NCBI RefSeq assembly: GCF_004010195.1
Contig: NC_057754.1
Span: forward strand, 3,037,649-3,101,648
Origin: Chiloscyllium plagiosum
Taxonomy: Eukaryota
Length of the DNA: 64,000 nt
Direction of reading: 5' to 3'
A program made the position numbers and the translations under genes. Positions within the stretch are counted from its first letter, which is position 1. Every line of letters begins with the position of its first letter. Shown one piece after another: positions 8,881 to 55,146 of this stretch. Below the pieces are notes generated by a model. That model had not been told where the DNA came from. It saw only the letters and a list, made by a program, of their open reading frames with translations, and made no database searches.

Positions 8881-9042
8881 TAAAATAAAAATACCATTCC
8901 TCCGCCCTTCCTCCGATGGACCTTTCATCCGTCAGCCCTATGGGCAAGGTGGCCCCCCCTCTGTAATGGGCAGGGGGGTGCGTACTTAGAGTCGAATGGA
9001 AGCACAGGCAGTAAAATGGCTGCTGACAATCCAGTGACTCAC

Positions 9043-9944: not shown

Positions 9945-10059
9945 CTGCAGGAGAGAGAGAGTCCAGTACAGTTGGTCGTACGGCCAGCCCGGGTCCTACG
10001 TTCACTCCCATCCCTCAGACTCAGAAGAGAAATCTAACATAGCTTACATCTCTACACAA

Positions 10060-10712: not shown

Positions 10713-11004
10713 GGGATACAGTGCCACACTTGCAAGAGATCTATCAGAGTGTGTGCATTGTTCAAGCCCCCTTGTCTCAGGTAGGGTATACTTACCGTGG
10801 ATGGAAAACCGAGGAACTTCCTGACCTCCGACAGATGGTAGCATGAGGAGAGGTTGGGTAGGTTGGGCCTGTACCCATTGGAGCTTTGAAGAATGTGGGC
10901 AGGACTTATACAGTTAATGAGGTAAAAACAATGACTGCAGATGCTGGAAACCAGATTCTGGATTAGTGGTGCTGGAAGAGCACAGCAATTCAGGCAGCAT
11001 CCGA

Positions 11005-12515: not shown

Positions 12516-12634
12516 TCTAAATACAATCAAAATTCTCCCGCTCCCCGCTAGCAGCAGAGACCGGCCACCTATCCCTGTCTTCCCCACCCTCTGACTTTCA
12601 GCACAGCGACGCGGGAAAGGACTGGGAGACTCAC

Positions 12635-12835
12635 CGAGACGTACACGTCCGCTTCAATCCCGTTCAGTTTCAGCCTGAGCGGCTGCTCCTTGCTGGACAG
12701 GGCAGTGTACCTACCAGGCCACCGTCGGGGGAGAGCTGCCCCCTCCCCACCCAAGTACCAGTAGGTGCCGAAGATCCTGTCCATGTCACGTGCCAGGCAG
12801 CTACAGTTGGACAGCACCACCCCCAGCTCCTTGAC
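12635..12835 (-). CDS. PLD3-like exon
   Basis: gacag|VKELGVVLSNCSCLARDMDRIFGTYW...EADVYVS|gtgag; 201 nt, phase 0 to 0. Confidence 0.95.
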
Positions 12836-14779
12836 CTGTCAGCAGAACGCGAGGAGAGGGGAAATGTGAGCCACTGAAGAATTACATTACCCTGGCGCCT
12901 ACCTCTACTTCCCGAGCCAACGGATCCGCAACTCAAAACGCGTGCATAGTAGGATCCCAACAACCCACCTGGCCTGGTTTCCGTGACTGGGTACAAATAT
13001 CAAACCCGGGGCCCTGTGCAGGGCACAGCTGCCCGCGTTCCCCACACTTCTGACTTGCCCTTTACTTTTCAATCATTCCCGGGATGTGGGCATCTCTGGC
13101 CAGGCCAGCGCTTACTGCCCCATCCTAATTACCCAGAAGGCAACTGAGAGTCAACCACATTGCCGTGGGTCTGGAGTCACATTTAGGCCACATCGGGTAA
13201 GTTTGGCATTTTCCTTCCCTGAAGGGCATTAGTGAACCAGATGGGTTTTTCCAACAATCAGCAATTCACCCATGGTCATCGTTAGGCTCTTAATTCCAAA
13301 TTTTGTTTCATTTTGAAAATTAATTCAAGTTCCACCATGTTGGGATTTGAATAGGTCCCCAGCACATCACCAGGAGTCTCTGGATCAATAGCTTGGAGAT
13401 AACACCACTAGGCCATCACCTCTTCTTCCTGTTGGATCTTCCTTGTCTACCTTCAGGGATTGGTGAGGTGGGTTTACTATCCAGCCAATGGATAGGCACC
13501 TTCAACAATGCTCTCTGTTGGCCTGGATTTGCACTGGACCCCAGTGCAGGAACTTACAGCCCCACAACTTCCTAAGAAGAGTGGACAGAGCTGTTCCTCT
13601 GACAGGGCCACGACAGCAGACTAGAATCTCACCCACACCCTGAACACCTCCCAGCAGGTCACTGGAAAGTAATTACCTGATTAAAACCTTCTTCCCCAAC
13701 CCACACACAGAGGCACGACACAACTATTTGGTTACCATGACGCTTTGATCTAACGATAGCAATAACCGACATGAGTTGTCCTTCACTAACAGCCCCTCGG
13801 GCCATTACAGACGGTGATTAAGAGTTAACCCCCATTGCTGTGGGTCTGGAACCGTGTGTGCGTGTGGGCCAGACTGGGTAAGGATGGCAGATTTCCTTCC
13901 CTGAAGGGCGGTGGTGAAACGGATGGGTTTTTGTGACAATCTTTGATGGTCATTATCATGGAGAGGAGCTGGATGTTCCAGGTTTCACAGTGGCCTACTG
14001 CCTCACAGCACTAGGGACCTGGGTTTCTGGGTTTGATTCCACCCTCAGGCAACTGCGTGTGTGTGTGTGTGTGTGTATAAGGGGGGTTTCCTTTCAAAGA
14101 TGTGCAGGTTAGTGTGGATTGGCCATGCTACATTGCCCCATAGTGTGCAGGCTAGGTGGGTTAGCCATGGGAAATTGGTGGTTGGTCGCTTTTTGGTGTG
14201 GACTCATAGAGTCATAGAGATGTACAGCATGGAAACAGACCCTTTGGTCCAACCCTTCCATATATACCAACCCAATCTAGTCCCAATGGCCTGTTTCCAT
14301 ACTGCAAGGAATTCTATGAAGTTCCATCAGCAGCTGTGCCAAGATTTGAACCGGTGGCCTCATCATCAGAGTGGGCCTCTGGATTATCTAGCGCAGTGAC
14401 ATTACCATTACACCAGCCCCTCCTCCCACCAAAAGCAGGTCTCGAGTGGTTGGCCACCTCAGGGTGAATGAATAAGCTTTGCATTGGATGATCGCCCTTT
14501 GATGGTGGGCACCAGTTTGATGCCCATCTTTCACCGGACTTCGTGGAGATGAGGGGAACGAGAGAAGAGACTGAAGGAATCTCTGAAAAGTGGGGGAGGT
14601 GCAGAAAGTTGGAATTCAGGCCACAACTGGATCAGCCACTCCCTTGTGGAATGGAGAAGCAGGCTTGGAGGGACCGAATGGCCGCCCTTTGCTTAGGGTT
14701 GCGTCCTCTGAACCATCGGTGGTTGGTCTCCCCAGGGGCCTCTAAGCGCACACCACCGCCACCCCTCCCTGTTAGTTAC

Positions 14780-14907
14780 CTGGGTCAGTGAGCGCCAGTC
14801 CATGTTGGCGCTGCCGATGTAGACATGGCGTCCATCGACCACCCAGACCTTGGTGTGGACAATGCCACCCGTCAGGTTTTTCAGGAACACATGCCTCACC
14901 TCAGCAC
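14780..14907 (-). CDS. PLD3-like exon with first HKD motif
   Basis: tgcag|(G)[42 protein letters not shown]|gtaac; 128 nt, phase 1 to 0. Confidence 0.97.
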
Positions 14908-16109
14908 CTGCACCACAAAACAGCACAGTCAGACGAGAATCAGAGCGTGACTCAGAACATAGACTGACAACAGGAACTTACCGTGAGCAATAGATCTCCA
15001 GACCTTTGGAGTACTAAGGATATCCAGAACGATGCGCAGGAAGCAGAGTTGGTGGAGGACAGGAAGATTGCTACAATCCTTTCCTTAAAATTTTTAACCA
15101 AAGGATGTGGCTGGGCCTGCATTTATTGCCTGTTCCTAATTGCCCAGAGGGCAGTGAAGAGTCAACCACATCGCTGTGGGTCTGGGGTCACCAGTAGGCC
15201 CAGACCTCAGGCAAGGACAGTAGTTCCCTTTCCTGAAGGACATTATTGAACATGAGATGGATTTTTGCAACAATGGTTTCATGGTCATCATTGGTCTTGA
15301 TTCCAGATTCTTTTTACTGAATTCAAATAGCACCACATGCTGTCATGGGGTTCAAACACAGGTTTCCCAGGTCTCTGAGACCGTGGGCCTCTGGATTATT
15401 ACTCAGGGTAAAACCATTAGACCTTCACCTCCCCTCCAGGAGCTAGGAAGCTGTAGGGTCACCACTATTGAACATCCATGGTCTCATTCAATGGGGGGGG
15501 GGGTAGAAGAAGACTCAATGGGCTGAATGGCCTTCCCCCACTCCACTCCTATAGTCTTACGGTCTCGTGAACAGAACGGTGAGAGGGCGATTGACCTGAA
15601 GGCAGAAGAGATCAGATCGTTCCAAGTCGGGTATCCCGCAAGTTTGTTGCCAACGTTGGATTCATCAAATCTTAGTAGGAAGGGGGCAGGAAAATGCAAA
15701 AAGGAAGATAGAAATCTGGAATAAATGGCCTACTGGGGTAGGCTTCTGAAGCAAATGTATAAAGGGAATGAATTAAAACAATATGTGGTCGGCATGGACA
15801 GGTTGGACCAAAGGGTCTGTTTCCATGCTGTACATCTCTCTGACTCTATAAGAGGGCTTGACAGAGAGGGAGACAACACACAAATATTGTGGTCCAAAAA
15901 TTTCAAAGAACTTGAGGAAGCAGCAGTGTGCTTCCCCTGTGGCCGAATAGCCTGCCACCATTCACAGTGGCCAAGGGGCTACTAACAATCCTGGCAAGAA
16001 TTTGGGGTTATCCTGGTGGCGAATGTTGAGGGAGAGTTGGACGGGGGTGGTGGTCATACGGAGGGACAGGAACATAGAGGAGGCGGCAGTCAGTAAACAA
16101 GGGACTCAC

Positions 16110-16224
16110 CGCTTTTCGCCAGATCGCCTGTGTCTTTTTCAGACTGCTGGGGGCTGTTGACAGCGATCTTCAGGGTAATCCCTCGTGATTTCAAACCCGC
16201 CAGCTGCTTAAAGACCTGCTCACC
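16110..16224 (-). CDS. PLD3-like exon
   Basis: cgcag|GEQVFKQLAGLKSRGITLKIAVNSPQQSEKDTGDLAKSG|gtgagt; 115 nt, phase 0 to 1. Confidence 0.93.
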
Positions 16225-16297
16225 CTGCGCACAAACCACATCGCTAAAATTAGGGCGTGAGGCAACTCCACAGAATATCCCGTCACCGAGTCACCAC

Positions 16298-16832
16298 TTA
16301 GAGTCATAGAGATGTACAGCACGGAAACAGATCCTTCGGCCCAACCCGTCCATGCCGACCAGATCTCCCAACCCAATCCAGTCCCACCTGCCAGCACCCG
16401 GCCCATATCCCTCCAAACCCTTCCTATTCATATACCCATCCAAATGCCCCTTAAATGTTTCAATTGTACCAGCCTCCACCACTTCCTCTAGCAGCTCATT
16501 CCATACACGCACCACCCTCTGTGTGAAAAAGTTGCCTCTTGGATCTCTTTTATATCTTTCCCTTCTCACCCAAAACCTATGCCCCTCTAGTTCTGTACTC
16601 CCAGGGAAAAGACTTTGTCTATTTATCCTATCCATGCCCCTCATGATTTTGTAAACCTCTATAATGTCACCCCTCAGCCTCCGACGCTCCAGGGAAAACA
16701 GCCCCAGCCTGTTCAGCCTCTCCCTGTAGCTCAAACCCTCCAACCCTGGCAACATCCTTGTAAATCTTTTCTGAACCCTTTCAAGTTTCACAACATCTTT
16801 CAGATAGGAAGGAGACCAGAATTGCACACCAT
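16298..16832 (-). mobile_element. Young 5'-truncated CR1/HER1 LINE
   Basis: Open VQFWSP..KLERVQKRFTRMLPGLEGLSYRERL..NFFTQRVVRVWNEL and CTCTATGACTCTA tail. Confidence 0.95.
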
Positions 16833-17924
16833 AGCCTCTAATTGACACGGGGGGAGTCCTTGACCCCAGGAAGGCCCCCACTGGGCCAGCTCTCAGAGTG
16901 AACAGAACCTCTGACACTCCCCTGTTAATTTTCCTTTGGCCAGCTGGCTCAGAGTCAGCCCCCTGAACGGAGGAGATTCTAAATCTCCACTCAGGGTTAT
17001 TTCTTCTCTCTCTCTCTCTCTCTCTCTCTCCACCCCCACCCTACCGCCTAACATCGGTAGTGCTTATTCAGTCCCCAGCGCCCATGTCGCGCGTGTGTGT
17101 AGGTGTCGGACACAGTGAAGAATAACAAATACAGAAATTTTTATCCCTATTCCACCGCCAGGAAGAAAGGAAACACCCCAGTGGCCAGTGACAAGCAGTG
17201 CCCTTCTCGGAGGGCAATGCTGTGTGATCAAACAGTGAAGGGGAGGGCAGGGATTGCCTCAAAATAGAGTCGGAGGGGGAAATAAAACCCTCCACACCCT
17301 GCGGTGCCCACCTCTCCCTGAAAACCTCGAGGGTGCTGGTAGACACCGCGTGCTCCTTCTCTGGGGACACCTCTTCACCTGTTTATATCTGTCATCCCTG
17401 GTTGTACCAGGTTAACCTGATGAAGGGCTTTTGCCCGAAACGTCGATTTTCCTGCTCCTCGGATGCTGCCTGACCTGCTGTGCTTTTCCAGCACCACTCT
17501 AATCTAGACTCTGGTTTCCAGCATCTGCAGCCCTCACTTTTGCCAAGGTTAACAACCCCAAACAGGGAGCTCGCCTTCTATAAGGTTCACCTGGCTGACC
17601 TCATTATACAGCTTTAAACTAATCGAAGGAAGCCCAGTGTCTCTCAGAGAGCAAGTACAACTGGTTGGAAAATCTCATCCGTTTGGAAACGTTTGCCTGA
17701 AGGGAAGGCCAACACTTATTGCCCATCCCTAATTGTCCGAGGGACTAACTAGGGCCATTACAGAGGGCAGTTAGGAGACAAACCACATTGCTGTGGTTGT
17801 GGAGTCACATGCAGGCCAGACAGGGCCCAGATTTCGTTCCCAAAACCGGACGCTTTTCCCTGGCAGGTTTTAGCGATTGAAATTTTGATTAGTGATGGAG
17901 AAAGCATTACAGGAAGTGCAGGCT

Positions 17925-18974
17925 TGAAAGTGGAGTGACGGGTAGGCAGGATAGTGAAGAAGGCGTTTGGTATGGCTTGCCTTTATTGGTCAGTGCACTG
18001 ACTATGGGAGTTGGGAGGTCTGTACAGGACATTGGTCAGGCCACTTTTGGAATACTGCATTCAATTCCCTGCCACAAGCAGGAGGTTGTGAAACGTGAAA
18101 GGGTTGAGAAAAGATTTACAAGAATGTTGCCAGGGTTGGAGGGTTTGAGCTACAGGGAGAGGCTGACTACACCAGCACCGCTTTCCCTGGAGCGTTGGAG
18201 GCTGAGGGGTGACCTTATAGAGACTTATAAAATCATCAAACGCATGGATAGGCTAAATAGTCAAAGTCTTTTCCTCGGGGTAGGGGAGTTCAGCACTAGA
18301 GGGCTGAGGTTTAAGGTGAGAGGGAAAAGGTTTAAAAGGGATCAGAGGGGCTACTTTTTTCACACAGAGGGTGGTGTGTGTATGGAATGAGCTGCCAGGA
18401 GAAGTGGTGGAGGCTGGTACAATGACAACATTTAAAAGGCACCTGGATGGGTATGTGAATAGAATAGCCTTTAGTGTGAATGGTAGGGAATTAGAGTTTG
18501 CGATTTTTGTAAAGATTTGTAGCTCAGGGCTGAGGTTCAGGTTGTAAGTTTGCTCACTGAGCTGGAAGACTGGCTCTCAGACGTTTCGTCACCATGCTGG
18601 GTAACATCATCAGTGAGCCTCTGATGAAGCGCTGGTGTTGTGTCTCGCTTTCTATTGGTGTGTCTAGGTCTAAACAAAAAGACAGAACGCGCCCAGAGAC
18701 TCTAGCCACATTACCACACATTAAAGGCATCTCGGAGATGGCAACCAGACTACTCCAGCCCCTTGGCATCGTGGTAGCCCATAAACCTACCAACACACTG
18801 AAAGAGCTCTTGATGAACCTAAAGGACCCTGTACCAACAACCAGCAGAATTAATGTCATTTACAAAATACCCTGCAAGGCCTGCGACAAAATACATCAGA
18901 CAGACGAGCAGGAAACTAGCTACCAGGATACATGAGCACCAACTGGCCACCAAAGGACACGACCAACTATCACT

Positions 18975-19005
<31 letters not shown>

Positions 19006-19412
19006 GATGAGGGGTACCAGTCCGACTGGGATAATACATCCATCCTAGACAATGCACGGGAATCCTTACAGGCCTGGCACTCAAACCGAAACTCCATCAA
19101 CAAACACATCGATTTGAACCCCATTTACCAAACTCTCAGAAACACAACCTGAAGTGATAACACCCACCACATCACGAGACACATCAATAGAAAGCGAGAC
19201 ACAACACCAGCGCTTCATCAGAGGCTCACTGATGATGTTACCCAGCATGGTGACGAAACGTCCGAGAACAAGTCTTCCAGCTCACCGAGCAAACTCACAG
19301 CCCGGATTTGGAGGGATATGGGCCAAATGCTGGCAGATTAATTTGGGATATCTGGTCGGCACGGACAAGGTGGGTTGAAGGGTCCGTTTGCGTGCTGTAC
19401 ATCTCTGTGACT
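17925..19412 (+). mobile_element. CR1/HER1 3' fragment interrupted by a Penelope element
   Basis: CR1 ORF to ~18460; tail resumes at ~19304 (GGATTTGGAGGGATATGGG). Confidence 0.9.
18500..19303 (+). mobile_element. Penelope-like element: GIY-YIG endonuclease remnant between inverted terminal repeats
   Basis: TLPHIKGISE..LLQPLGI..HKPTNTL..NVIYKIPCKAC..QTSRKLATRIHEH..SINKHIDL; ~18545-18660 is the reverse complement of ~19180-19295. Confidence 0.92.
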
Positions 19413-19466
19413 CCAGGACTCTTACGTGTGTATAAGCCAGGCAAGGATTGAGAAAGCACTGTTCAC

Positions 19467-19650
19467 CTGAGAGGCTGAAGGATCCCCTTGGCTCAGGTCA
19501 CCGCCCCGCAATGTGAAGTAAAAGGCTGCGATTTCCACAGTGTGGTTGGCCTGATCGAGGAGATCCATCCAGCCGTTGTAGATGGAGACATGGTGAGGGG
19601 CACCTTTGGAGAACGAAAGTCCGATCGGAATACTCTCCACCAGAGTCAAC
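19467..19650 (-). CDS. PLD3-like exon (start of the catalytic domain)
   Basis: tttgcag|(x)LTLVESIPIGLSF...WMDLLDQANHTVEIAAFYFTLRG...SASQ|gtgaac; 184 nt, phase 2 to 0. Confidence 0.95.
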
Positions 19651-21399
19651 CTGCAAACCAAACAATACTCACACGGATCTCTCCCGGGATTTAAATGTCC
19701 CAGAAGCAGCCAGGGTGCCTCCGTGCCGATCTCCCGTTCCCTGGACATCTCCGCTACTGCCTCATGTGCCAACTCACTTGCTGTGCTCGCTTACCCTCAC
19801 TGGTGGCCAGTCAATTCTTACTCTGTAACCTCCTCCCTGCACCTACTCCTACACCCCCTCCCTGTCTCTGTCACCCCCTCCAGCCCCTACACCCCTCCCT
19901 ATCTCTGTCACCCNNNNNNNNNNNNNNNNNNNNNNNNNNNNNNNNNNNNNNNNNNNNNNNNNNNNNNNNNNNNNNNNNNNNNNNNNNNNNNNNNNNNNNN
20001 NNNNNNNNNNNNNNNNNNNNNNNNNNNNNNNNNNNNNNNNNNNNNNNNNNNNNNNNNNNNNNNNNNNNNNNNNNNNNNNNNNNNNNNNNNNNNNNNNNNN
20101 NNNNNNNNNNNNNNNNNNNNNNNNNNNNNNNNNNNNNNNNNNNNNNNNNNNNNNNNNNNNNNNNNNNNNNNNNNNNNNNNNNNNNNNNNNNNNNNNNNNN
20201 NNNNNNNNNNNNNNNNNNNNNNNNNNNNNNNNNNNNNNNNNNNNNNNNNNNNNNNNNNNNNNNNNNNNNNNNNNNNNNNNNNNNNNNNNNNNNNNNNNNN
20301 NNNNNNNNNNNNNNNNNNNNNNNNNNNNNNNNNNNNNNNNNNNNNNNNNNNNNNNNNNNNNNNNNNNNNNNNNNNNNNNNNNNNNNNNNNNNNNNNNNNN
20401 NNNNNNNNNNNNNNNNNNNNNNNNNNNNNNNNNNNNNNNNNNNNNNNNNNNNNNNNNNNNNNNNNNNNNNNNNNNNNNNNNNNNNNNNNNNNNNNNNNNN
20501 NNNNNNNNNNNNNNNNNNNNNNNNNNNNNNNNNNNNNNNNNNNNNNNNNNNNNNNNNNNNNNNNNNNNNNNNNNNNNNNNNNNNNNNNNNNNNNNNNNNN
20601 NNNNNNNNNNNNNNNNNNNNNNNNNNNNNNNNNNNNNNNNNNNNNNNNNNNNNNNNNNNNNNNNNNNNNNNNNNNNNNNNNNNNNNNNNNNNNNNNNNNN
20701 NNNNNNNNNNNNNNNNNNNNNNGGAGGAGGGTGAGAGGGGGGGGGGGGGGGGGGGGGGGGAGAGGGAGGGGGAGAGAGAGAGAGATATAGAGAGGGAGGG
20801 GGAGAGAGGGAGATGGGGGTGGAAGAGATGGAGAGACAGGGAGGGAGAGAGACGGAGAGAGACAGAGAGAGAGAGAGAGACGGGGGTGGGGGAACAAAAC
20901 AGGCAATCACCAAGAGTGGCAAGCATTGAGAGCACCTTCCTATTGCTGAAGCCACCCACGGTCGAATAGCTAGCCCAGACTCACAAGGTTGGCTCCATGG
21001 GCAGAATGTGACAGATCTGCTCAAATCACCACCCCGTACGCCGTCACAGGTCAGAGGGCATTTCCACCATGTGAGGCATCACAGTACATTCCGATGCTAT
21101 GCCCCCTCCCTGCAATGCACAAGTGTGAATGTGCGGGGGTGGGGGGGGGGGTTAGGGGGAATGACCAGGCTGGACAGGGCTTAGACAGAAAAGGACCTGA
21201 TTCCAATCCCTGTGTCCTGAACGTATCCACCTCCCCACCACCCCCCACCAACCACCCACCCCACCCCCGGCGACCATTGCTCATTCCCCATACCCTCCGA
21301 CCTCGCATCCAAGGACAGCAGAGGCCATTTGAAAATGAGGGGTGTGTGTGACGAGAAAGTCCCTCATCACTCATGTCTCATCATTACCATCACCTCCAT

Positions 21400-21800
21400 A
21401 CCGTGCTGACCCTGTCCTGGGGAGTGTTTGATGGGGGGACAGTGTAGAGGGAGCTTTACTCTGTATCTAACCCCGTGCTGTCCCTGTCCTGGGAGTGTTT
21501 GATGGGGGACAGTGTAGAGGGAGCTTTACTCTGTATCTAACCCCGTGCTGTCCCTGTCCCTGCAAGTGTTTGATGGGGGACAGGGCAGAGGGAGCTTTAC
21601 CCTGTATCTAACCCCGTGCTGTCCCTGTCCTGGGAGTGTTTGATGGGGGACAGTGTAGAGGGAGCTTTACCCTGTATCTTACCCCGTGCTGTCCCCTGTC
21701 CTGGGAGTGTTTGATGGGGGACAGTGTAGAGGGAGCTTTACTCTGTATCTAACCCCGTGCTGTCCCTGTCCCTGCAAGTGTTTGATGGGGGACAGGGCAG
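21400..21800. repeat. ~70-bp shark satellite (CCCTGTCCTGGGAGTGTTTGATGGGGGACAGTGTAGAGGGAGCTTTACTCTGTATCTAACCCCGTGCTGT)
   Basis: ~5.5 tandem copies; another array at 32036-32625. Confidence 0.95.
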
Positions 21801-23390
21801 ATGGGGTTAGGAAGAGGGTGAAGGGCTGGAGGAGGTGTATGGGGTTAGGAAGAGGGTGAAGGGCTGGAGGAGGTGTATGGGGTTAGGAAGAGGGTGAAGG
21901 GCTGGAGGAGGTGTATGGGGTTAGGAAGAGGGTGAAGGGCTGGAGGAGGTGTATGGGGTTAGGAAGAGGGTGAAGGGCTGGAGGAGGTGTATGGGGTTAG
22001 GAAGAGGGTGAAGGGCTGGAGGAGGTGTATGGGGTTAGGAAGAGGGTGAAGGGCTGGAGGAGGTGTATGGGGTTAGGAAGAGGGTGAAGGGCTGGAGGAG
22101 GTGTATGGGGTTAGGAAGAGGGTGAAGGGCTGGAGGAGGTGTATGGGGTTAGGAAGAGGGTGAAGGGCTGGAGGAGGTGTATGGGGTTAGGAAGAGGGTG
22201 AAGGGCTGGAGGAGGTGTATGGGGTTAGGAAGAGGGTGAAGGGCTGGAGGAGGTGTATGGGGTTAGGAAGAGGGTGAAGGGCTGGAGGAGGTGTATGGGG
22301 TTAGGAAGAGGGTGAAGGGCTGGAGGAGGTGTATGGGGTTAGGAAGAGGGTGAAGGGCTGGAGGAGGTGTATGGGGTTAGGAAGAGGGTGAAGGGCTGGA
22401 GGAGGTGTATGGGGTTAGGAAGAGGGTGAAGGGCTGGAGGAGGTGTATGGGGTTAGGAAGAGGGTGAAGGGCTGGAGGAGGTGTATGGGGTTAGGAAGAG
22501 GGTGAAGGGCTGGAGGAGGTGTATGGGGTTAGGAAGAGGGTGAAGGGCTGGAGGAGGTGTATGGGGTTAGGAAGAGGGTGAAGGGCTGGAGGAGGTGTAT
22601 GGGGTTAGGAAGAGGGTGAAGGGCTGGAGGAGGTGTATGGGGTTAGGAAGAGGGTGAAGGGCTGGAGGAGGTGTATGGGGTTAGGAAGAGGGTGAAGGGC
22701 TGGAGGAGGTGTATGGGGTTAGGAAGAGGGTGAAGGGCTGGAGGAGGTGTATGGGGTTAGGAAGAGGGTGAAGGGCTGGAGGAGGTGTATGGGGTTAGGA
22801 AGAGGGTGAAGGGCTGGAGGAGGTGTATGGGGTTAGGAAGAGGGTGAAGGGCTGGAGGAGGTGTATGGGGTTAGGAAGAGGGTGAAGGGCTGGAGGAGGT
22901 GTATGGGGTTAGGAAGAGGGTGAAGGGCTGGAGGAGGTGTATGGGGTTAGGAAGAGGGTGAAGGGCTGGAGGAGGTGTATGGGGTTAGGAAGAGGGTGAA
23001 GGGCTGGAGGAGGTGTATGGGGTTAGGAAGAGGGTGAAGGGCTGGAGGAGGTGTATGGGGTTAGGAAGAGGGTGAAGGGCTGGAGGAGGTGTATGGGGTT
23101 AGGAAGAGGGTGAAGGGCTGGAGGAGGTGTATGGGGTTAGGAAGAGGGTGAAGGGCTGGAGGAGGTGTATGGGGTTAGGAAGAGGGTGAAGGGCTGGAGG
23201 AGGTGTATGGGGTTAGGAAGAGGGTGAAGGGCTGGAGGAGGTGTATGGGGTTAGGAAGAGGGTGAAGGGCTGGAGGAGGTGTATGGGGTTAGGAAGAGGG
23301 TGAAGGGCTGGAGGAGGTGTATGGGGTTAGGGAGAGGGTGTAGGGGCTGGAGGAGGTGTATGGGGTTAGGAGGAGGGTGTAGGGGCTGGA
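21801..23390. repeat. 38-bp G-rich minisatellite (ATGGGGTTAGGAAGAGGGTGAAGGGCTGGAGGAGGTGT), ~41 copies
   Basis: Essentially identical tandem copies, degenerate only at the right end. Confidence 0.97.
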
Positions 23391-23570
23391 AGTGGTGACA
23401 GAGATAGGGAGGGATTTCAAAACAAGCAGCCGGACCCTTGTCAAATTGAAATATTTTCCTAACAGCAATCTCTGTGGGATTCCTCAGATCGCAGGTCTTC
23501 TCACATTCACCAACCATCTCCTGCAGTGACCAGCAGCTGACCTTCAAGCCCAGACCATTGTAATACTGAC

Positions 23571-23798
23571 CTTGACCACAGGAGGGACCATGATGCTCCT
23601 GGGGGTCTCCTGGTGCTCAGTTCCATCCTCCTCTTCCTCCTTCTGTTCTTCCTCCCCTTCCTCCTTCTTCATCCTCCTTTGCTTCAAATCTAAGTCTGCC
23701 TTCACCTTCTGCAGAACAACCTGAAGTGGTTTCAAATTAACCTGATGGAACATGACCCACTCTGAAATTAGGCGCTGGCGCAGTGCTTTCACCGTGCG
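23571..23798 (-). CDS. Candidate N-terminal exon of the PLD3-like gene (charged, E/K-rich)
   Basis: Pyrimidine tract + cacag|RTVKALRQRLISEW...KKEEGEEEQKEEEED...PPVVK|gtcagt; 228 nt, open, phase 0 to 0. Confidence 0.6.
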
Positions 23799-24169
23799 CT
23801 GTGATATCACACAAGAGAGAGATACAGGAGAGGGTAGACATGTCTAACTGGTTCCTCAATGCCCTGTCCATTCTGGGACAGAAAGGACACCCTACCTCCA
23901 AAACGAAGCACTTTGTAAAACATACTTTTTGTGTGTACAACTCCCATACACAGCAATGTGAGCATGATCCAGATCATTTGATTTTGGTGTTGTTGGTTGA
24001 GGGATAAATATTTGCCCCCAGGACTCCAGAGAGAACACCCTCTCGCTCATTTACCAATAGTAGCCACTCGATTCTCTTACACACATAATCAGACCCACAG
24101 TCATCTATACGTACAACCTTGACCCTTCGAGAGGGCAGGGGTAGCTCAGCAATTAATGTCTCATCTGAA

Positions 24170-25550
24170 AGATAACACACCCGACAGCATGGCACTCCCT
24201 CAGTACTGACCCCCCCGACAGTGCGGCGCTCCCTCAGTACTGACCCCCCGACAGTGCGGCGCTCCCTCAGTACTGACCCCCCCGACAGCATGGCGCTCCC
24301 TCAGTACTGGCCCCCCAACAGCATGGCGCTCCCTCAGTACTGACCCCCCNNNNNNNNNNNNNNNNNNNNNNNNNNNNNNNNNNNNNNNNNNNNNNNNNNN
24401 NNNNNNNNNNNNNNNNNNNNNNNNNNNNNNNNNNNNNNNNNNNNNNNNNNNNNNNNNNNNNNNNNNNNNNNNNNNNNNNNNNNNNNNNNNNNNNNNNNNN
24501 NNNNNNNNNNNNNNNNNNNNNNNNNNNNNNNNNNNNNNNNNNNNNNNNNNNNNNNNNNNNNNNNNNNNNNNNNNNNNNNNNNNNNNNNNNNNNNNNNNNN
24601 NNNNNNNNNNNNNNNNNNNNNNNNNNNNNNNNNNNNNNNNNNNNNNNNNNNNNNNNNNNNNNNNNNNNNNNNNNNNNNNNNNNNNNNNNNNNNNNNNNNN
24701 NNNNNNNNNNNNNNNNNNNNNNNNNNNNNNNNNNNNNNNNNNNNNNNNNNNNNNNNNNNNNNNNNNNNNNNNNNNNNNNNNNNNNNNNNNNNNNNNNNNN
24801 NNNNNNNNNNNNNNNNNNNNNNNNNNNNNNNNNNNNNNNNNNNNNNNNNNNNNNNNNNNNNNNNNNNNNNNNNNNNNNNNNNNNNNNNNNNNNNNNNNNN
24901 NNNNNNNNNNNNNNNNNNNNNNNNNNNNNNNNNNNNNNNNNNNNNNNNNNNNNNNNNNNNNNNNNNNNNNNNNNNNNNNNNNNNNNNNNNNNNNNNNNNN
25001 NNNNNNNNNNNNNNNNNNNNNNNNNNNNNNNNNNNNNNNNNNNNNNNNNNNNNNNNNNNNNNNNNNNNNNNNNNNNNNNNNNNNNNNNNNNNTGCAGTGC
25101 TCTCAGAGTACAGAGCCTCAGACAGTGCGGCATTCCCTCTGGACTGAACGTCTGACAGCATGGTGCTCCCTCAGTACTGACCCTCCGACAGCATGGTGCT
25201 CCCTCAGCACTGACCCTCCGTCAGTGCCCACTCCCTCAGCACTGACCCTCCCACAGTGCCCACTCCCTCCGTACTGACCCTCCGACAGCACAGTGCTGCC
25301 TCAGCCTTGACCCTCCGACAGTGTAGCACTCCCTCAGCATTGACCTTCCCACAGTGCGGCACTCCATCAACACTGGCCCTCTGACAGCGCGGCACGCCCT
25401 CAGCCTTGACCCTCCAAAAGCACAGCGCTCCCTCAGCACTGACCCTCCCACTGTGCCTGCTCCCTCAGCACTGACCCTTCGACAGTGCCCACTCCCTCAG
25501 CACTGACCCTCCGACAGTGCCCACTCCCTCAGCACTGACCCTCCGGCTGC
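24170..25550 (-). repeat. 33-bp minisatellite apparently derived from a DeuSINE internal segment, spanning an N gap (24350-25092)
   Basis: Reverse complement of GTCAGTGCTGAGGGAGCGCCGCACTGTCGGAGG; followed by SINE-like TCTTTCAGATGAGACATTAA. Confidence 0.85.
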
Positions 25551-28138
25551 ATTGAACTCTTCCCACTCTGGCACTGGGAGTATGAGCAAAAGTGTCGAGA
25601 GTGAATACTCGATTCCCTTTTCGTGAGAAAAACCATGACTAACAGCTGGGAATGAGGTGGCTGGCCCATTGGCTCGGACAGAGAGAGATAAAAACAGAGT
25701 CGCAGAGTGAGGCGCTGGAAAAGCACAGCAGGTCAGGCAGCATCCGAGGAGCAGGAGAGTCAACATTTCAGGAATGGCTTATTCTGCTCCTGGGATGCTG
25801 CCTGACCTGCTGTGCTTTTCCAGCAACACACTCTTCAAATCTGATCTCCAGTGCTCACTTTCTCCCAGAAATAAAGACAGACAGAGACTGAGAGAGAGAG
25901 ACTGACAAAGAGACCGAGAGAGACAGAGTGAAAAAGATACAGAGAGAAAGAGAGAGAAGGGGTTAGATGGCAGAGCTGTTGGGTAAGAATAGCAGAGACT
26001 CTTCTCGTGAAAGGATAACACCTCCACACACCAGGAGAGGGCACTATCTGCACATACCACAGACTGTGTCTGAGTTGCTTCCCTCCATAGGAACAGTAAC
26101 AGTAACAATACTGAGGTACAGTATCAGAACCAAAACTCTCTACCTGCGATACAAAGTACCTGCAGTGACTCACAGCGATACACCAAAGTGGAACACAACT
26201 AGGGGAGGTTGTAGAACGAGATCGGGTGTGAGGAAGGAAGGAGATGTGAAGTACAGCCAACAACAATGTGCATTCCTGTAGCGCCTTTACGTGACATACC
26301 ATCCTCCTGGCAGTATAACCCAACAGGTTTTGACCCTGAGCCACATTATTAGGGGCAGACTCGTCCAAAGAATTTGCTTTAATGAGGGTCTTGGAGGAGC
26401 GAAAGGGAGAGAGAGAGAGAGAGACAGCAAGGTTTAGGGAAGGGAAATCCAGAGCTTAAGAGTCCCAGGAAGCTGAAGGAATGGTCACTAATGCTGAATG
26501 ATGGGAATTGGGGGATGCTCAAGGGGCCCGGAATCGGAGCACAGATGTAGGGCTGGAGGGGGTGACAGAGATAGGGAGGGGGTGTAGGGCTGGAAGCGTG
26601 ATAGAGATAGGGAGGGGGTGTAGGGGGTTACAGAGATAGGGAAGGGGGTGTAGGAGCCAGAGGAGGTTACAGGGATAGGGAGGGGTGCAGGGGATGGGAG
26701 AGATTACAGAGGTAGGGGAGGGGACTTGGGGCTGGAGGAAATGACTGAGCTAGGGAGGGGATCTTGGGGGCGTCTGAGTTGTATGTCCCGTTATAACACA
26801 CCAACTGCAGCGCAATACATCAGGCAGACAGCTCCCCTCTCCAACCTGCCCAAAAGCTTTATCCGAATCCTCTACCCCAACCTTTAAAAGCTTGTGGTCC
26901 CACTGTCCCTCTGGCTGGAGACTGAGATACCATCTGGATGACAGGACCTGTTAACAGCTCCCTCTCTATGTAAAAACAATGCAAGTGCATTTGCATAGCA
27001 CCTATCACAACCTCAGGATGTCTCAATGCCTGTTCACAGCCAAATGTCAGCACTGTCAGCAATGCAGGAAATGCACTGGCCATGCACAGCAGGATCCCAC
27101 ATACAGCGACTAACCAGCAAATCATCTGCCTTTGGGAAGTTAGTCGGAAGTAAAGAGGTTTCGTAATTTATTTACAAAACTGAAAACCCCTGGGGGAGGT
27201 GCTGGAGGTCAGAAAAAACGAAACAGGCTGGAAACACTCTGAGGGACAGGGAGTGGGGGGGACACTGAAACAGTTAGCGATCCATTCCTAGGACCCTTCA
27301 CCAGAACTGGGAAGGAGAGTGAGATGTGAATGGGGGTGTTAGTGCCAAGCAGAACGAGATGACAAAGGGATGGAAGACATGTGTAGAGGAGGTGTGAACG
27401 GTAGCAGAAGGCAGAGGGATGATGGTCATCTCACTGGACTAGTGGTGGGGGGGGTCATTTGATTATAAGACCAAAAGACATAGGAGTGGAAGTAAGGCTA
27501 TTCGGCCCATCGGGTCCACTCCACCATGGCTGGTGGCCATTTCAATGCCACTTACCCACACACTCCCCATATCCCTTAATTGCTTGCACGATTAAGAATT
27601 TATCAATCCCTGCCTTGAAGACACGTAACGTCCCAGTCTCCACTGCGCTCCATGACAATGAATTCCACAGGCCCACCACTCTCTAGCTGAAGGAATGTCT
27701 CCTCATTTCCGTTTTAAATTGACCCCCTCCAATTCCAAGGCTGTGCCCACGGGTCCCAGTCTCCCCGCCTGACGGAAACACATTCCCAGCATCCACTCTT
27801 TCTAAGCCATGCATTATTTTGTAAGTTTCTATTAGATCTCTCCTCAATGTTCTAAACTCTCATGAATGCCATCCCAGGATCTTCAGCCGTTCATCATATG
27901 TTAGGCCTAGCCTTGGTGAGACTTAAATCCCACCCCTAAAACAGGGTGGGGTGAGGCTGGGGAGAGAACAATGGGTGAATGGGGGAGGGGGTGGAGGTGA
28001 TCCGAGGAGCAGGAAAATCAAAAAGCCCTCTTGCTGATTTCTCAATCCCCTGCTGAATTCCCTGTGTCCTTTTCTCAGTCCAACCCATCAATTTGATTGA
28101 AATACCTGATGTTAACATTGCCCCCCCCCCATACTCAC

Positions 28139-28297
28139 CGGCTCAGCCTCCTCCTCCTCTATCCTTGCTGTCGCACTGCTCCTCAGGGTTCTGGAGCTCC
28201 CACGGATAGGATTCCTGGGCGTCAGGACCAGCATTTCGCTGGACCGGGAATCTGCTTGCTCCTGGCTCTCGGTTTCCGTCTCTCCCTCTTCTTGAAC
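28139..28297 (-). CDS. Candidate N-terminal exon of the PLD3-like gene
   Basis: gagcag|VQEEGETETESQEQADSRSSEMLVLTPRNPIRGSSRTLRSSATARIEEEEAEP|gtgagt; 159 nt, phase 0 to 0. Confidence 0.55.
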
Positions 28298-28392
28298 CTG
28301 CTCCCAGGACAGGAAACACAGCACATCGCTGACTCCGTGGTAAAACGATTCCCCAGCTCCAGGCTTCCCAGTGCAACCTCCTCCCAGAATGT

Positions 28393-29370
28393 AGGCACAG
28401 CAGAGTGGCTTTAGTGGTTAGCACTTCTGCCTCACAGCTCCAGGCACCTGGGTTCGATTCCACCCTCGGGTGACTGCACAGGGTTTGTACATCCCCCCCG
28501 CCCCCCCAACCATGTCGGCGTGGATTTCCTCCAGGTGCGCTGGTTTCCTCCCACAGTCCAAAAATGTGTAGGTTAGGGTGGATTGGCCATGGGAAATTGT
28601 CCCATAGCGCCCAGGGATATGCAGGTTAGGGTGGATTGGCCATGCTAAATTGTCCCATAGTGCCCAGGGATGTGCAGGTTAGGGTGGGTTGGCCGCGCTA
28701 AATTGTCCCATAGTGCCCAGGGATGTGCAGGTTAGGGTGGATTGGCCATGCTAAATTGCCCCATAGTGCCCAGGGATGNNNNNNNNNNNNNNNNNNNNNN
28801 NNNNNNNNNNNNNNNNNNNNNNNNNNNNNNNNNNNNNNNNNNNNNNNNNNNNNNNNNNNNNNNNNNNNNNNNNNNNNNNNNNNNNNNNNNNNNNNNNNNN
28901 NNNNNNNNNNNNNNNNNNNNNNNNNNNNNNNNNNNNNNNNNNNNNNNNNNNNNNNNNNNNNNNNNNNNNNNNNNNNNNNNNNNNNNNNNNNNNNNNNNNN
29001 NNNNNNNNNNNNNNNNNNNNNNNNNNNNNNNNNNNNNNNNNNNNNNNNNNNNNNNNNNNNNNNNNNNNNNNNNNNNNNNNNNNNNNNNNTGGCCATGCTA
29101 ACTTGTCCCATAGTGCCCAGCGATGTGTAGGTTAGGGTGGATTGGCCACGCTAAATTGTCCCATAGCGCCCAGGGATTTGCAGGTTAGGGTGGATTGGCC
29201 ATGCTAAATTGTCCCATAGTGCCCAGGGATGTGCAGGTTAGGGTGGATTGGCCATGGGAAATTGTCCCATAGTGTCCAGGGATGTGTAGGTTAGAGTGGA
29301 TTAGCCATGGGAAATGTAAGGTTTTGGGGAAAGATTGGGGTGCTCCTCAGAGGGTCAGTGTAGACTTTTA
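28393..29370 (+). mobile_element. HE1 SINE with large 53-bp tandem expansion across an N gap
   Basis: Head at ~28393; units on both sides of gap 28779-29089. Confidence 0.88.
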
Positions 29371-30875
29371 GATTAGATTAGATTACAGTGTGGAAACAGG
29401 CCCTTCGGCCCAACAAGTCCACACCGACCCGCCGAAGCGTAACCCACCCATACCCCTACATTTACCCCTTACCTAACACTACGGGCAATTTAGCATGGCC
29501 AAGACTTGGTGTCTCCTTTCTGCACAGAATCCCCCACACTCTGGGAAGATGCCATTTCAGCCCATCGTGTCCCGGACTAGCTCTCTCTAACCACCCCTTA
29601 AATATCCAAATAATCATGCAATGCTCAGCTGAACCTGCCCCCCCACCACCACCACCACCACATTTCCAGGCGATACCTTTCAGACTGTAACCTCTCCCTG
29701 GGTGGGGGAGAAAAATAAAATTGCTTCCCACAGCGTCTTTGTTTCGTTTCCAACACAATTTAAAACGTGTGATCTCTGAATTCTGAATGCTTTCCCGCAT
29801 CTTTGCCCAGGCCCCTCACTTCATCCCGCAGACCCGGTAATGTCTGCTGACAATTTCAGGGCTGCTTTTCGAGTTGTTCCTTTGCAATTGAGAATGGGGG
29901 CAATTAATTTTCCACTCACGTCTCTCTGGGGGGGGGGGGGGTTGGTTTCTTTCTTTGGCGCCAAAAGTGATCAGAAACTGAAACAGTGAAAGAAATTGCT
30001 GCGTCCACTTCCGGGAATGCTTTGTGGAGAAATAAGTTTTGAAAAATGCAACATTTCGTTTAATCTTAATGCGGTGCACATGAAGGGATGGAGGTGAATC
30101 CCCAACTCTCTCCGTCCCTGTCACGTTTGAATATAAGTGCTTTAGGGGGAACTTGTCAGCTTTGGAAATTGATACAGTTAAAAATGTTGCAATAAGGCGT
30201 TGATATCGACAAAATAAAACACAGGAATGCACATTTAACTTCTGTTACCATCCTAGGGTCAGCACACACACACACAGACATCATAGTCGAAGGTCCTAGA
30301 CAAGGGGATGCCAATTACATTAAGTTTCACTGGCTAATTTCACGAATGCTGGAGATTTCAGGGAGGACCACAAATTTGGTCACGGTTTTTAAAGCGTGCA
30401 GTCGAATCGGTCCCCAGTAGTTTTACAAAATGGTATCACTTTACGTCTCTCTCTCTCTCTCTCGAAGATGCACAAACCTGCCCTTTCAGTCGCTTCGACT
30501 TCCTCCGTTGCACCTCGACCCTCCTTGGCATTGCAAAGCGAGACGAAATCTTTGCCCCCACTCCCCACTGAAACAAAACTTTGTTTTAAAAGACTTCTTC
30601 AAAGTCACTGCTGGCCACTTGCTTTGTTGGGGTTTTTGTTGTTGTTGTTGTTTGCAGTGACGTTTTTAGGAAACGGGCGATAACCACCTTCTGGCCAGCA
30701 AAGCAACAGCCAGCTCCCACAACAGAGACTTTCAAATTTAAACCGGTTTGTCAGTTAGAGCGGGGATTTTTTTTTAAAAAAAATATATCTTTCCTGTTCC
30801 GTCCCTCAGGCAGCAATAAGGCTGCCCTCCAGTGGTCCCACAGCCAACTTTCATGTCACTGAAGTTGTCTCTCAC

Positions 30876-32975: not shown

Positions 32976-33411
32976 CTTATTGGCCACAATTGTTTCCTTG
33001 CAATATTCACGTCCTCTGCTTAATTCTGAGCTGAAGGTGAGCTGGATTTTGGCAATGCACCAGCCTCAGGCACACTCCAGTTACAACTGATCAGTGCCTG
33101 AGGGTGGTATTGTGCAGGCTGTCACCTAGTGGCCACCACAGGAATAGCGGGTGGCCATTCAGCCCGTCAAACCTGTTCCTCCATGCAGCAAGATCCGCCC
33201 TGCCCCCATATCCCTGAAGTAATTTGATTAGCAAAAATCGATCCACCTCATATTTAAATTGTTGAACTTATCGAATATCAGTTTCAGTTTGTGGATGAAT
33301 ATTCCAAACGTTTTCCGTCCTTGGTGCGGAGAAACTAATTTCACTCCTGAAAGATCTTGGGCTCTCCTTTTTAAATCCTGCTCCTTCCTGAACCAGAGGA
33401 GACAATAATAC

Positions 33412-40568: not shown

Positions 40569-41063
40569 TTATGTGAGACCGAACGAGAATGGGAACTACT
40601 GCATTATTATCAGAACTGATGGTATATCTGTTGCCCTTTCCCTGCTCCATGGTAGAGGACTTGGGTTTTGGAAGGTACTGCCTGAGGATCTTTGGTGAGT
40701 TTCTGCAGTGTATCTTGTTGATGGTATACACTGTTGCTACTGAGCGTCGGGGGGGGGGGGTGGTGGATGTTTCTGGATGTGGTGCCAATCGAGCGGGGGC
40801 TGCTTTGTCCCTGGACGGTGTCGAGCTTCTTGAGTGTTGTTGGAGCTGCCCCCATCCAGGGGCAAGTGGGGAGTGTTCCCTCACCCTCCTGACTCGTGCC
40901 TTTGTAGATGGTGGGACGGGCTTTCGGGAGTCAGGAGGTGAGTTACTCGCTTCTGGCCAATGGTAAATGGGGTAAGGGACTTAAAGAGGATGATAACGGA
41001 GTCCTCCTTGAACAGTGTGCTAAGGGGTGGTGGGAAGATGAAATCTGGGAGTTTGTGAAAGAC

Positions 41064-41392
41064 AGTCCTCCCAGCCTCCAGGTGGCGACAGTAGGACGGT
41101 GGAGCGTCTGGGAAGAAATGAGAGTGCATGTGAAGTAGTCCTCCCAGCCTCCAGGTGGCGACAAGTAGGACGGTGGAGCTTCTGAGAAGAAATGAGAGTG
41201 CATGTGAAGTAGTCCTCCCAGCCTCCAGGTGGCGACAGTAGGACGGTGGAGCTTCTGGGAAGAAATGAGAGTGCATGTGAAGTAGTCCTCCCAGCCTCCA
41301 GGTGGCGCGGTGGTGGGGGGGGAGCTCAGTGCAACTCTGGGAATAAAGGAAGTTGCATGCGAGAGAGTCCTCCCAGCCTCCAGGTGGCAATA
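41064..41392 (+). repeat. 73-bp tandem repeat, 5 units, each with a CTCF-like motif GCCTCCAGGTGGC(G/A)
   Basis: Motif starts at 41074, 41147, 41221, 41294 and 41376. Confidence 0.85.
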
Positions 41393-41399
41393 GGGGGAA

Positions 41400-42060
41400 C
41401 TTGTTTGTTCAGGCGTCAAACGTCCTTGGCGTTGCCATGGCAAAAGCGGCGCGAATCTCGCGAGACAGGGTGGCATTTCCGGTCCGGCCGCGGGGGGAAG
41501 AGAGCGTGGTCTGCGCCTGCGCATCGGCTCGTGGTGGGGGTGTGCGGGTGAACGGAACCAAAGGCGACGCTGCGTTTAGAAGGTTTTTTTTTCTCTGGAG
41601 AAGAAGGGGCGCCTCTTCGGGCTGTACTGAGTGAGACCGTGTGGGGCGGAGAGAAGGAGAAGCGGGTCCGGGACCTCGGGTGAACTGGGCCTTTCGCCGC
41701 CCGCCTCTTTTCGGTTTTTTTTTGTGTGTGTGTGTCACCCCGGCAGCGGTTCGCGGGGAACAGCCAATGGCAGGGCAGCCGGAGCATTGAGTGACGGCCG
41801 GTCTGACCAATCGGCAGTAGGATCACCGCCATGTGTGACAGTTAGATCAGCCAATCAACAGCCGGGTGCAGGTTGAGTGACGGCACATCCAGCCAATCGG
41901 AGGCTGTCGCGGACTGAGTGACGGTCGGATTGGCCAATCTACAGCGGGGCTGGGTCTGTGTGGCCGCCTGCCCCTCAAGGGGACGGTGATCATTGGCAGG
42001 TTGGCTATGAGTCTCCAGCCAATCAGCGAATTGAGTGAGTGGGTCTTTCTTAATTGTTTT
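41400..42060. promoter_or_regulatory. CpG-island promoter, probably shared by the divergent PLD3-like (-) and ZBTB3 (+) genes
   Basis: CpG-dense; RFX X-box GTTGCCATGGCAA 41431, E2F GGCGCGAA 41448, TCTCGCGAGA 41456, ETS ATTTCCGG 41475, NRF1 TGCGCCTGCGCA 41512, ~7 CCAAT/ATTGG boxes 41760-42025. Confidence 0.85.
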
Positions 42061-42079
42061 CGAGCCTCCAATAGAGAGA

Positions 42080-53571: not shown

Positions 53572-55146
53572 ATGGAGTTCCCTGACCATGGTCGTTTGCT
53601 GCTGCAGAGCCTGCGGGACCAGAGACACCAGGGCTTCCTGTGTGACTGCACGGTGCTGGTGGGGGCGGTGCAGTTCCAGGCCCACCGGGCCGTGCTCGCC
53701 TCCTTCAGCACCTACTTCCACATGTTCTACAAGGAGGAGGCGGTAGGCCGCAGGGACGTAGTGGGCCTGGACGACGAGATAGTGACGGCGCCGGCCTTCT
53801 CCCTGCTGCTGGAGTTCATGTACGAGGGCCGGCTCCGCTTCAGCGGTGCGCCCACCGAGGATGTGCTGGCTGCGGCCAGCTTCCTGCACATGAACGACAT
53901 CGTCAAGGTGTGCAAGGGCCGGCTGAAGGCCCGGGCCCTGGCGGAGGCTGACAGCACCCGCAAGGAGGATGAGGCCCAGCAGCAACCGGGAGCAGGGGGA
54001 GGGCTCGGCCTATCCGCCTCCTACCGGGGGGTCGTGCCTCCCCCACCCGTCCCTCCCCTGCAGCCCCCACCGCCCTCTCGGAGACAGCCCCCGGCGCCAG
54101 CGGAGCTGCCCTACGCCTCGGGGGGCGAGGAGGACAGGGCCGGAGCCTCCCTCCTGCTGCTGCAGCCCCCCGAGGCACCGGCCCCCGGTCGCTGGCCCCC
54201 CGAGCCGGCCGACACCACCACCAGCAGCCAGGCCAGCATGGAGACCGAGGCCTACCCCAGCAGGCCGGCCGGCAACGTCCTGGCCAGCCCTTCCTCCTCC
54301 ACGGCGGAGGCCCCCTGCCCTCGCTGGGCCGGGCTGTCGGGCAGCAGGAGGAGGCCCCACCAGGAGGAGGAGGAGGAGGGTGGGGAGGAGGAGGCAGGGG
54401 ACGGGGACACTGAGGACGACGGCGATCTGATCACGGTCAAGGTGGAGGACGACCTGTTCTCCGAGGAGGAGGCCGGAGAGGAACCGCCTGAGGGCGATGC
54501 TCCCGAGGAGGTGGAGGCCGCTGCTGCCTCCTGCTGCCCGCAGCTCGATGACCTCTTCCAGCAGCCACCGGCGGAGTTAGCCCAGGCCCAGACCCCGGCC
54601 TTGGCCTGTGGAGGGGGAGGGGGCCACATCGTCATCTCGGACGAGGATGAGATGCCGTCGGAGGATGACGCGTTCCCGGCTCCTGGCCTCTACCACCACC
54701 GGGGTCTCCCACCCCCCGCCCCACAGGCCTCTCCGGGAGACTTGGGCTCCCCTGCCGCCTTGGGCCTTTCGGCCAAGCTCTACTTCCAGGACCTGCCGCC
54801 AGGGCCAGGGCCAGGGCCTGGGCCGGGCCCAGCCGGCTCAGAGGATGAGCTGCCGACCTGCGGGGCCTGCGGCAAGACTTTCTCCTGTGCCTACAGCCTG
54901 AAGCGGCACGCCCTGGTGCACACCCGCGAGAGGCCCCATAGCTGCCGCTTCTGTCTCCGTCGCTACTCACAGTCCGGGGACCTGTACCGCCACATGCGCA
55001 AGTACCACAACGCCCACGTCTCGTCGTCATCCCCTGGACCAGGCCCCGGACCAGGCCCTGGTCCCGGACCCAGCCCCGGCCGACAGGACTCCTCCAACGG
55101 TGGCTGGAAGTGGATGGACAAGCCTCCTTCAGAACAGTGGAAATGA
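53572..55146 (+). CDS. ZBTB3: Zinc finger and BTB domain-containing protein 3 (524 aa, BTB plus two C2H2 fingers), single coding exon; acceptor at 53453
   Basis: [43 protein letters not shown]; fingers [50 protein letters not shown]; two fingers and the [12 protein letters not shown] pattern fit ZBTB3 rather than four-finger ZBTB18/42. Confidence 0.93.

What the first reader, a model, noticed from the sequence alone, without database searches (positions are those of the whole stretch)
41064..41392. Tandem array of five co-oriented CTCF motifs on the left edge of the promoter
Seen: AGTCCTCCCAGCCTCCAGGTGGC occurs five times (spacing 73, 74, 73, 82 bp). The spacer before copy 5 is strongly diverged while this 23-mer is invariant, which suggests selection on the motif. 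Known: CC(A/T)CCAGGTGGCG closely matches the CTCF core, and clustered co-oriented sites make strong loop anchors. Inference: an insulator or boundary that protects the island from repeat-dense flanks, or a directional loop anchor pointing toward ZBTB3.
Basis: partly seen in the sequence, partly recalled or inferred. Interest (0 to 1): 0.7.

Follow-up and report, generated by a model that had tools for sequence, protein, structure and literature searches.

The report
CTCF-motif minisatellite at shark promoter edge
A short tandem repeat at the edge of a shark gene promoter carries five identical, same-direction matches to the binding motif of the genome-folding protein CTCF, which makes it a likely but untested one-way boundary element of a kind already known from mammals.

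Summary
In detail: five exact 23-mers at 41064, 41137, 41211, 41284, 41366, none elsewhere in the window. Each scores 17.6-17.8 bits (p about 6e-7) on a recalled CTCF matrix; 0 of 16 other minisatellites exceed 6.6 bits. The five copies are not five independent witnesses: spacers 1-3 are 96-98% identical (a recent triplication). Three older units remain, whose spacers are about 70% alike while the 23-mer is unchanged (neutral chance about 1e-4), and a sixth, decayed copy at 41000 has lost the core. The upstream motif typical of strong insulator sites is absent. The array ends 40 bp left of a CpG-island promoter between a PLD3-like gene (minus strand) and a ZBTB3-like gene (plus strand); a reverse CTCF motif at 33117 makes a divergent pair with it. 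Best reading: a CTCF-bound, rightward-facing barrier at the promoter's left edge, grown by local repeat expansion, like mouse DXPas34. Occupancy, transcription start and cross-species conservation could not be tested. New member of a known kind; modest interest.

The parts
41064..41086 (+). 23-mer copy 1; CTCF core starts at 41075
   Evidence: (17.8 bits)
41137..41159 (+). 23-mer copy 2; core at 41148
   Evidence: (17.8 bits)
41211..41233 (+). 23-mer copy 3; core at 41222
   Evidence: (17.8 bits)
41284..41306 (+). 23-mer copy 4; core at 41295
   Evidence: (17.7 bits)
41366..41388 (+). 23-mer copy 5; core at 41377, ending 40 bp left of the first promoter motif
   Evidence: (17.6 bits)
41064..41307 (+). 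recent 73-bp tandem expansion (3.3 copies) holding copies 1-4
41307..41365 (+). older diverged spacer (59 nt), about 70% like spacers 1-3
41000..41063 (+). decayed unit 0: first 8 bases of the 23-mer kept, core lost, then a 41-nt spacer alignable with spacer 4 (shuffle p 0.003; not significant against spacers 1-3)
41389..42079 (.). CpG island with promoter-type motifs (names recalled): RFX 41431, BANP 41456, ETS 41475, NRF1 41513, Sp 41643, CCAAT boxes; inferred promoter of the ZBTB3-like gene
   Evidence: CpG o/e 1.13 and 0.76
33117..33135 (-). single reverse-oriented CTCF motif (18.9 bits) with 7 of 10 upstream-motif match at the 5-bp linker; divergent to the array
53572..55146 (+). ZBTB3-like coding sequence (BTB + C2H2), acceptor-like site at 53453
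6306..29800 (-). PLD3-like gene, coding exons; 5' end faces the array from 11 kb to the left

Best explanation
The array is a locally expanded minisatellite whose every intact unit carries a forward CTCF core motif, and it likely binds CTCF and would then act as a one-way barrier at the left edge of the CpG-island promoter that likely drives the ZBTB3-like gene. Shown: the motif, its orientation, its place at the island edge, the repeat history (older units of 64, 73 and 82 bp, one of them recently triplicated) and the divergent motif at 33117. Inferred: selection kept the 23-mer while spacers drifted; bound CTCF halts cohesin arriving from the ZBTB3 side and damps leftward (antisense) transcription from the island towards the PLD3-like gene; the extra recent copies are probably a tolerated by-product of repeat slippage that adds redundancy.
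For: Matrix score 17.6-17.8 bits, p 5.5-6.4e-7 (matrix recalled); about 0.08 chance hits of that strength are expected in the window (arithmetic); 0 of 16 other minisatellites exceed 6.6 bits and 6 of 20000 shuffled units reach 17.5. Three old units share 23 of 23 bases while spacers are about 70% alike: simulated neutral chance 1e-4 at 70% identity (1e-5 to 7e-3 for 66-80%). Copies 4 and 5 first differ just 3' of the 12-bp core, at matrix position 16 by G or A, its two common bases (matrix recalled). Core position 2 is not a CpG, the position at which methylation blocks binding (PMC10484683; PMC6600276). CpG o/e is 0.29-0.44 in the array and 1.13 just right of it. Reverse-forward divergent pairs mark boundaries (PMC7087399), and skate boundaries show this orientation code (PMC10115646); the lamprey motif is nearly identical to the mammalian one (PMC5504073). 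CTCF bound some way upstream of a start site represses antisense transcription in mouse cells (PMC12695661), and a CTCF site at +25 strongly cuts initiation (PMC11269187).
Against: No binding data. Upstream (ZF9-11) motif absent: best 5 of 10, reached by 55% of random positions, whereas characterised insulators typically carry it (PMC12885311). Two disfavoured bases in copies 1-3 (T at matrix position 6, frequency 0.10; A at 17, 0.09). The kept block runs 8 bases beyond the matrix, and those 8 bases survive in unit 0, which lost the core: CTCF-core selection does not explain that. The window holds 17 arrays of period 30 or more, so multiplication needs no selection. The null ignores gene conversion and assumes a star tree; the left spacer aligns significantly with only 1 of 4 spacers. 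The start site is unmapped: no donor-like site with 7 of 9 consensus bases lies in the island on either strand. No strong convergent partner to the right within the window.
Confidence: 0.55

Rival explanations
1. A largely neutral minisatellite: one CTCF-like site (or a chance match) was multiplied by slippage and homogenised by conversion, and the array as such does nothing.
For: Minisatellite-rich window; spacers 1-3 are 96-98% identical; unit 0 lost the core; the 8-base 5' block is kept without a known binding reason.
Against: Identity starts at the same base in copies 1, 4 and 5 and stops at almost the same base; neutral chance about 1e-4; the kept block coincides with a p about 6e-7 motif beside a promoter.
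Confidence: 0.2
2. CTCF binds but works mainly as a direct, loop-independent activator of a housekeeping-type ZBTB3 promoter, through the copy nearest the start site.
For: Forward motifs just upstream of start sites activate broadly expressed genes (median about 79 bp; PMC12695661); the copy-5 core ends 40-122 bp left of the RFX/BANP/ETS/NRF1-type motifs.
Against: If the start lies right of the NRF1-type motif (inferred from PMC11269187), copy 5 is more than 120 bp and copy 1 more than 430 bp upstream, beyond the typical activating window; only one copy would be needed.
Confidence: 0.15
3. The selected unit is the whole 23-mer as the site of another zinc-finger protein (or CTCF plus a partner on the 5' 8 bases).
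For: The 8 bases 5' of the matrix are identical in 6 of 6 units (chance about 0.003-0.014 at 70% identity) and match no spacing of the upstream motif. At ICCE and DXZ4, conservation also runs beyond the core and was suggested to reflect other proteins (PMC6125249).
Against: No candidate factor was identified; no motif library was available, only a few recalled consensus patterns.
Confidence: 0.1

Closest known systems
DXPas34 minisatellite at mouse Tsix (PMC3149622, passages)
   Same: Minisatellite near a promoter with one CTCF site per monomer; monomer length varies (30-70 bp across rodents) while a short motif is conserved.
   Different: DXPas34 is CpG-rich and tied to X inactivation; this array is CpG-poor, has 5 intact units, sits beside an ordinary protein-coding gene's island, and has no binding data.
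Tandem co-oriented CTCF sites at Pcdh and Igh clusters (PMC7087399, passages)
   Same: Several same-direction sites; a reverse-forward divergent pair as boundary signature.
   Different: Those arrays are experimentally shown insulators spread over gene clusters; here five motifs lie in 325 bp and arose by repeat slippage.
ICCE / DXZ4 macrosatellites (PMC6125249, passages)
   Same: Tandem repeat in which the CTCF motif, plus some bases beyond it, is kept while the rest diverges.
   Different: Units of 3-5 kb anchoring inactive-X superloops; here units of 64-82 bp.
Promoter-proximal CTCF sites that block upstream antisense transcription or activate housekeeping genes (PMC12695661, passages)
   Same: Forward motif upstream of a CpG-island promoter.
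   Different: Described for CTCF peaks within 400 bp of mapped start sites in mouse cells; the start site here is unmapped and the site is repeated five times.

Membership tests
CTCF binding site | Strong match to the 12-15 bp core read by ZF3-7 | tested here: met
   17.6-17.8 bits, p about 6e-7, with a recalled MA0139.1 matrix; the skate study used a score threshold of 8 with this matrix
CTCF binding site | Occupied by CTCF in vivo or in vitro | not testable with these tools
   no run could be laid on the stretch
Upstream-motif (ZF9-11) insulator-class CTCF site | 10-bp upstream motif 2-7 bp (typically 5) before the extended core | tested here: not met
   best 5 of 10 in each copy; 55% of 20000 random positions reach 5; definition from PMC12885311
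CTCF-site minisatellite (DXPas34-like) | Tandem units each carrying a motif | tested here: met
   5 of 6 units carry it
CTCF-site minisatellite (DXPas34-like) | Motif better conserved than spacers among units | tested here: met
   23 of 23 against 35 of 49, p = 0.002; three-unit null about 1e-4
CTCF-site minisatellite (DXPas34-like) | Motif conserved across species, copy number variable | not testable with these tools
   no genome held for the window; no look-alike windows in earlier findings
Domain boundary / loop anchor | Reverse-forward divergent motif pair | tested here: met
   reverse 18.9-bit motif at 33117, forward array 8 kb to its right
Domain boundary / loop anchor | Convergent partner and insulation in Hi-C | tested here: inconclusive
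   no strong reverse motif to the right in 22 kb (best 15.1 bits in coding DNA); partners may lie beyond the window; Hi-C not available
Promoter-proximal activating CTCF site | Forward motif about 80 bp upstream of the start site | tested here: inconclusive
   orientation fits if the island drives ZBTB3-like; start site unmapped

The most novel reading that the evidence does not exclude
Cartilaginous fishes routinely build promoter-edge CTCF barriers by local minisatellite expansion, so that boundary strength is a copy-number trait, and this array's 23-bp footprint includes a non-canonical 8-base 5' element read by CTCF's outer fingers or by a partner protein.
Probability: 0.15. Interest if true: 0.6.

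Novelty: new member of a known kind. Interest (0 to 1): 0.3.

Why it matters
If bound, it is a compact natural example of a CTCF cluster born by repeat slippage rather than by transposon spread, in a lineage with little regulatory data, and its possible copy-number variation would allow a direct test of whether more co-oriented sites make a stronger barrier. It does not change what is known of CTCF.

Tried and rejected
Search of public runs with the library word ChIP: none was listed; this is no evidence, and no reads were laid. Own-genome search: no genome is held. Earlier findings by place, relatives, sequence and genome-wide 'CTCF': nothing. Upstream CTCF motif at linkers 2-7: not above chance. 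Origin from an interspersed repeat: no match better than E = 0.098 elsewhere in the window (window only). Coding: unit lengths 73, 74 and 82 are not multiples of three and the three ORFs over the array that were scanned in full or in part gave no Pfam hit above cut-off (one sub-threshold NS3_helicase_C hit, E 0.0013, rejected). Structured RNA: 1 Rfam match in the window, far away. ZNF143- or STAT-like sites in the spacers (recalled patterns): only a short TCTGGGA is shared and it is changed in spacer 2; not pursued. Analogy to the TERRA 61-bp repeats, recalled as CTCF-bound: the paper read places the CTCF sites about 300 bp downstream of the 29-bp repeats (PMC6600276), so dropped. Two papers were not held; PMC7932699, PMC10832218 and PMC8896466 (passages) added nothing decisive.

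Full report
Observation. The 23-mer lies at 41064, 41137, 41211, 41284 and 41366 on the + strand, exact in all five places, with no other match within 6 mismatches anywhere in the window. Spacing is 73, 74, 73, 82. Tandem Repeats Finder calls 41064-41307 a 73-bp array of 3.3 copies at 97%.

Repeat history. Spacers 1-3 match each other at 48-49 of 50 bases; spacer 4 matches them at 32-35 of 49-50 and has a 9-base insertion; the 41 bases left of copy 1 align with spacer 4 (shuffle p 0.003) but not significantly with spacers 1-3 (p 0.13-0.23). At 41000 the first 8 bases of the 23-mer recur (the only other + strand occurrence of that 8-mer in the window) but the rest has decayed and the best CTCF score there is -5 bits. 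So the array is best read as an older repeat with units of 64, 73 and 82 bp, one of which was recently triplicated. However the triplication is phased, copy 1 against copy 4 and copy 4 against copy 5 still compare old units (inference). With spacers about 70% alike, a run of 23 bases identical in three units arose in 1e-4 of 2 million simulations (1.3e-5 at 66%, 7e-3 at 80%; star tree, no conversion).

Motif. With a CTCF matrix recalled from JASPAR MA0139.1 (no motif library was available), each copy scores 17.6-17.8 bits, p 5.5-6.4e-7, ranks 2-6 in the window; the result holds under three backgrounds (14.9-17.8 bits). None of the 16 other arrays of period 30 or more exceeds 6.6 bits, and 6 of 20000 shuffled units reach 17.5. 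In the numbering of PMC10484683 (passages and section 14) the core has C at 1, 2 and 12 and G at 11, T instead of the usual A at 3, and no CpG at the methylation-sensitive position 2. The upstream motif (definition from PMC12885311, passages and section 5; consensus letters partly recalled) is not there: at most 5 of 10 over linkers 2-7, which 55% of random positions reach. Unexplained: the 8 bases 5' of the matrix are invariant in 6 of 6 units, including the one without a core.

Setting. I scanned 448 of the 456 stop-free ORFs of 40 aa or more listed outside 41.5-55.1 kb, and none of the 118 between 41.5 and 53.5 kb: 4 ORFs hit PLD domains, 1 hit adenylosuccinate synthetase, and 3 gave hits below cut-off. 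The PLD exons belong to a PLD3-like gene on the minus strand, coding from 29800 to 6306; its best named relative is a bamboo-shark protein at 93% over the exon searched. The ORF at 53572-55146 has BTB and C2H2 domains and its best relatives are shark and ray ZBTB3-like proteins. CpG o/e rises from 0.29-0.44 in the array to 1.13 at 41389-41700. The window's only matches to recalled RFX, BANP and NRF1 patterns lie there, 40-122 bp right of the copy-5 core. The other CpG-rich patches between 29 and 53.4 kb are at 38.5-39.0, 48.1-48.5 and 53.0-53.3 kb and look like repeat sequence (my reading). That the island drives the ZBTB3-like gene is therefore inferred, not shown; the PLD3-like gene may start near 30.0 kb (ETS-like match and raised CpG) or share the island. 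The best motif of the window is a reverse site at 33117 (18.9 bits) in window-unique DNA, with 7 of 10 upstream-motif bases at the typical 5-bp linker (1.5% of random positions). It faces the PLD3-like gene while the array faces ZBTB3-like: a divergent pair. No comparable reverse site lies to the right inside the window.

Mechanism. Most likely (0.55) CTCF binds the array and forms a rightward-facing barrier at the island's left edge: a cohesin stop for loops over the ZBTB3 side and a block to leftward transcription out of the island. The supporting biology is from papers, not from this locus: divergent pairs at boundaries (PMC7087399, passages), the same orientation code in skate (PMC10115646, passages), the same motif in lamprey (PMC5504073, passages), antisense repression by sites further upstream of a start (PMC12695661, passages), strong repression by a site at +25 (PMC11269187, passages). 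Rivals: neutral minisatellite around one site (0.2), direct activator (0.15), another factor on the whole 23-mer (0.1).

Comparison and novelty. It works like DXPas34 (PMC3149622, passages) and, at a smaller scale, like ICCE/DXZ4 (PMC6125249, passages): a tandem repeat that keeps its CTCF motif. It fails the test for the upstream-motif insulator class. Searches for this locus or kind in sharks found nothing relevant: 'ZBTB3 + shark + CTCF' listed 6 of 8 papers, none on topic by title and abstract start; 'elasmobranch + CTCF + tandem repeat' found 0; the library lacks most subscription papers, including the 2018 shark genome paper. No supplements were read.

Verdict. A real, non-random feature and a plausible CTCF cluster, but a new member of a known kind whose occupancy and function are untested. 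Interest 0.3.

Noticed in passing
window:42080-42846: 33-bp minisatellite of 23 copies on the island's right edge, each unit carrying a forward CCAAT box; with the CTCF array, the promoter is flanked on both sides by expanded motif repeats. A donor-like site lies near its end, at 42700.
   Followed up: partly
window:41788-41944: Three copies of a TGAGTGACGG element each followed 8-9 bases later by CCAAT; resembles the PBX-PREP plus NF-Y composite promoter element (recalled, untested).
   Followed up: no
window:33117-33135 (- strand): Best CTCF motif of the window, with an upstream-motif match at the typical linker; a better candidate for a classical insulator site than the array.
   Followed up: partly
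window:6306-29800, 53572-55146, 63546-63707: Gene order PLD3-like, ZBTB3-like, ADSS-like. In 3 species (Pristis, Leucoraja, Heptranchias) the PLD3-like and ZBTB3-like hits list the same longest-contig length, hinting at kept linkage. It echoes the human PLD4-ZBTB42-ADSS1 and PLD5-ZBTB18-ADSS2 blocks (recalled), so it may be a further copy of that paralogon.
   Followed up: partly
window:19655-23571: Residues about 126-235 of the closest PLD3-like protein have no match in the window; the exons may lie in the assembly gap at 19914-20722.
   Followed up: no
window:41064-41307: The 73-74 bp period equals 7.0 helical turns at 10.5 bp, so copies 1-4 would face the same side of the DNA; the 64 and 82 bp units give 6.1 and 7.8 turns. 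Probably incidental.
   Followed up: no
window:41391-41404 and 30143-30156: An exact 14-mer is shared between the base of the CpG island and the region 5' of the PLD3-like gene (E = 0.098); not significant.
   Followed up: no
window:57563-57634 (- strand): Only Rfam match in the window, tRNA family at 43.8 bits; possibly a tRNA-derived SINE head.
   Followed up: no
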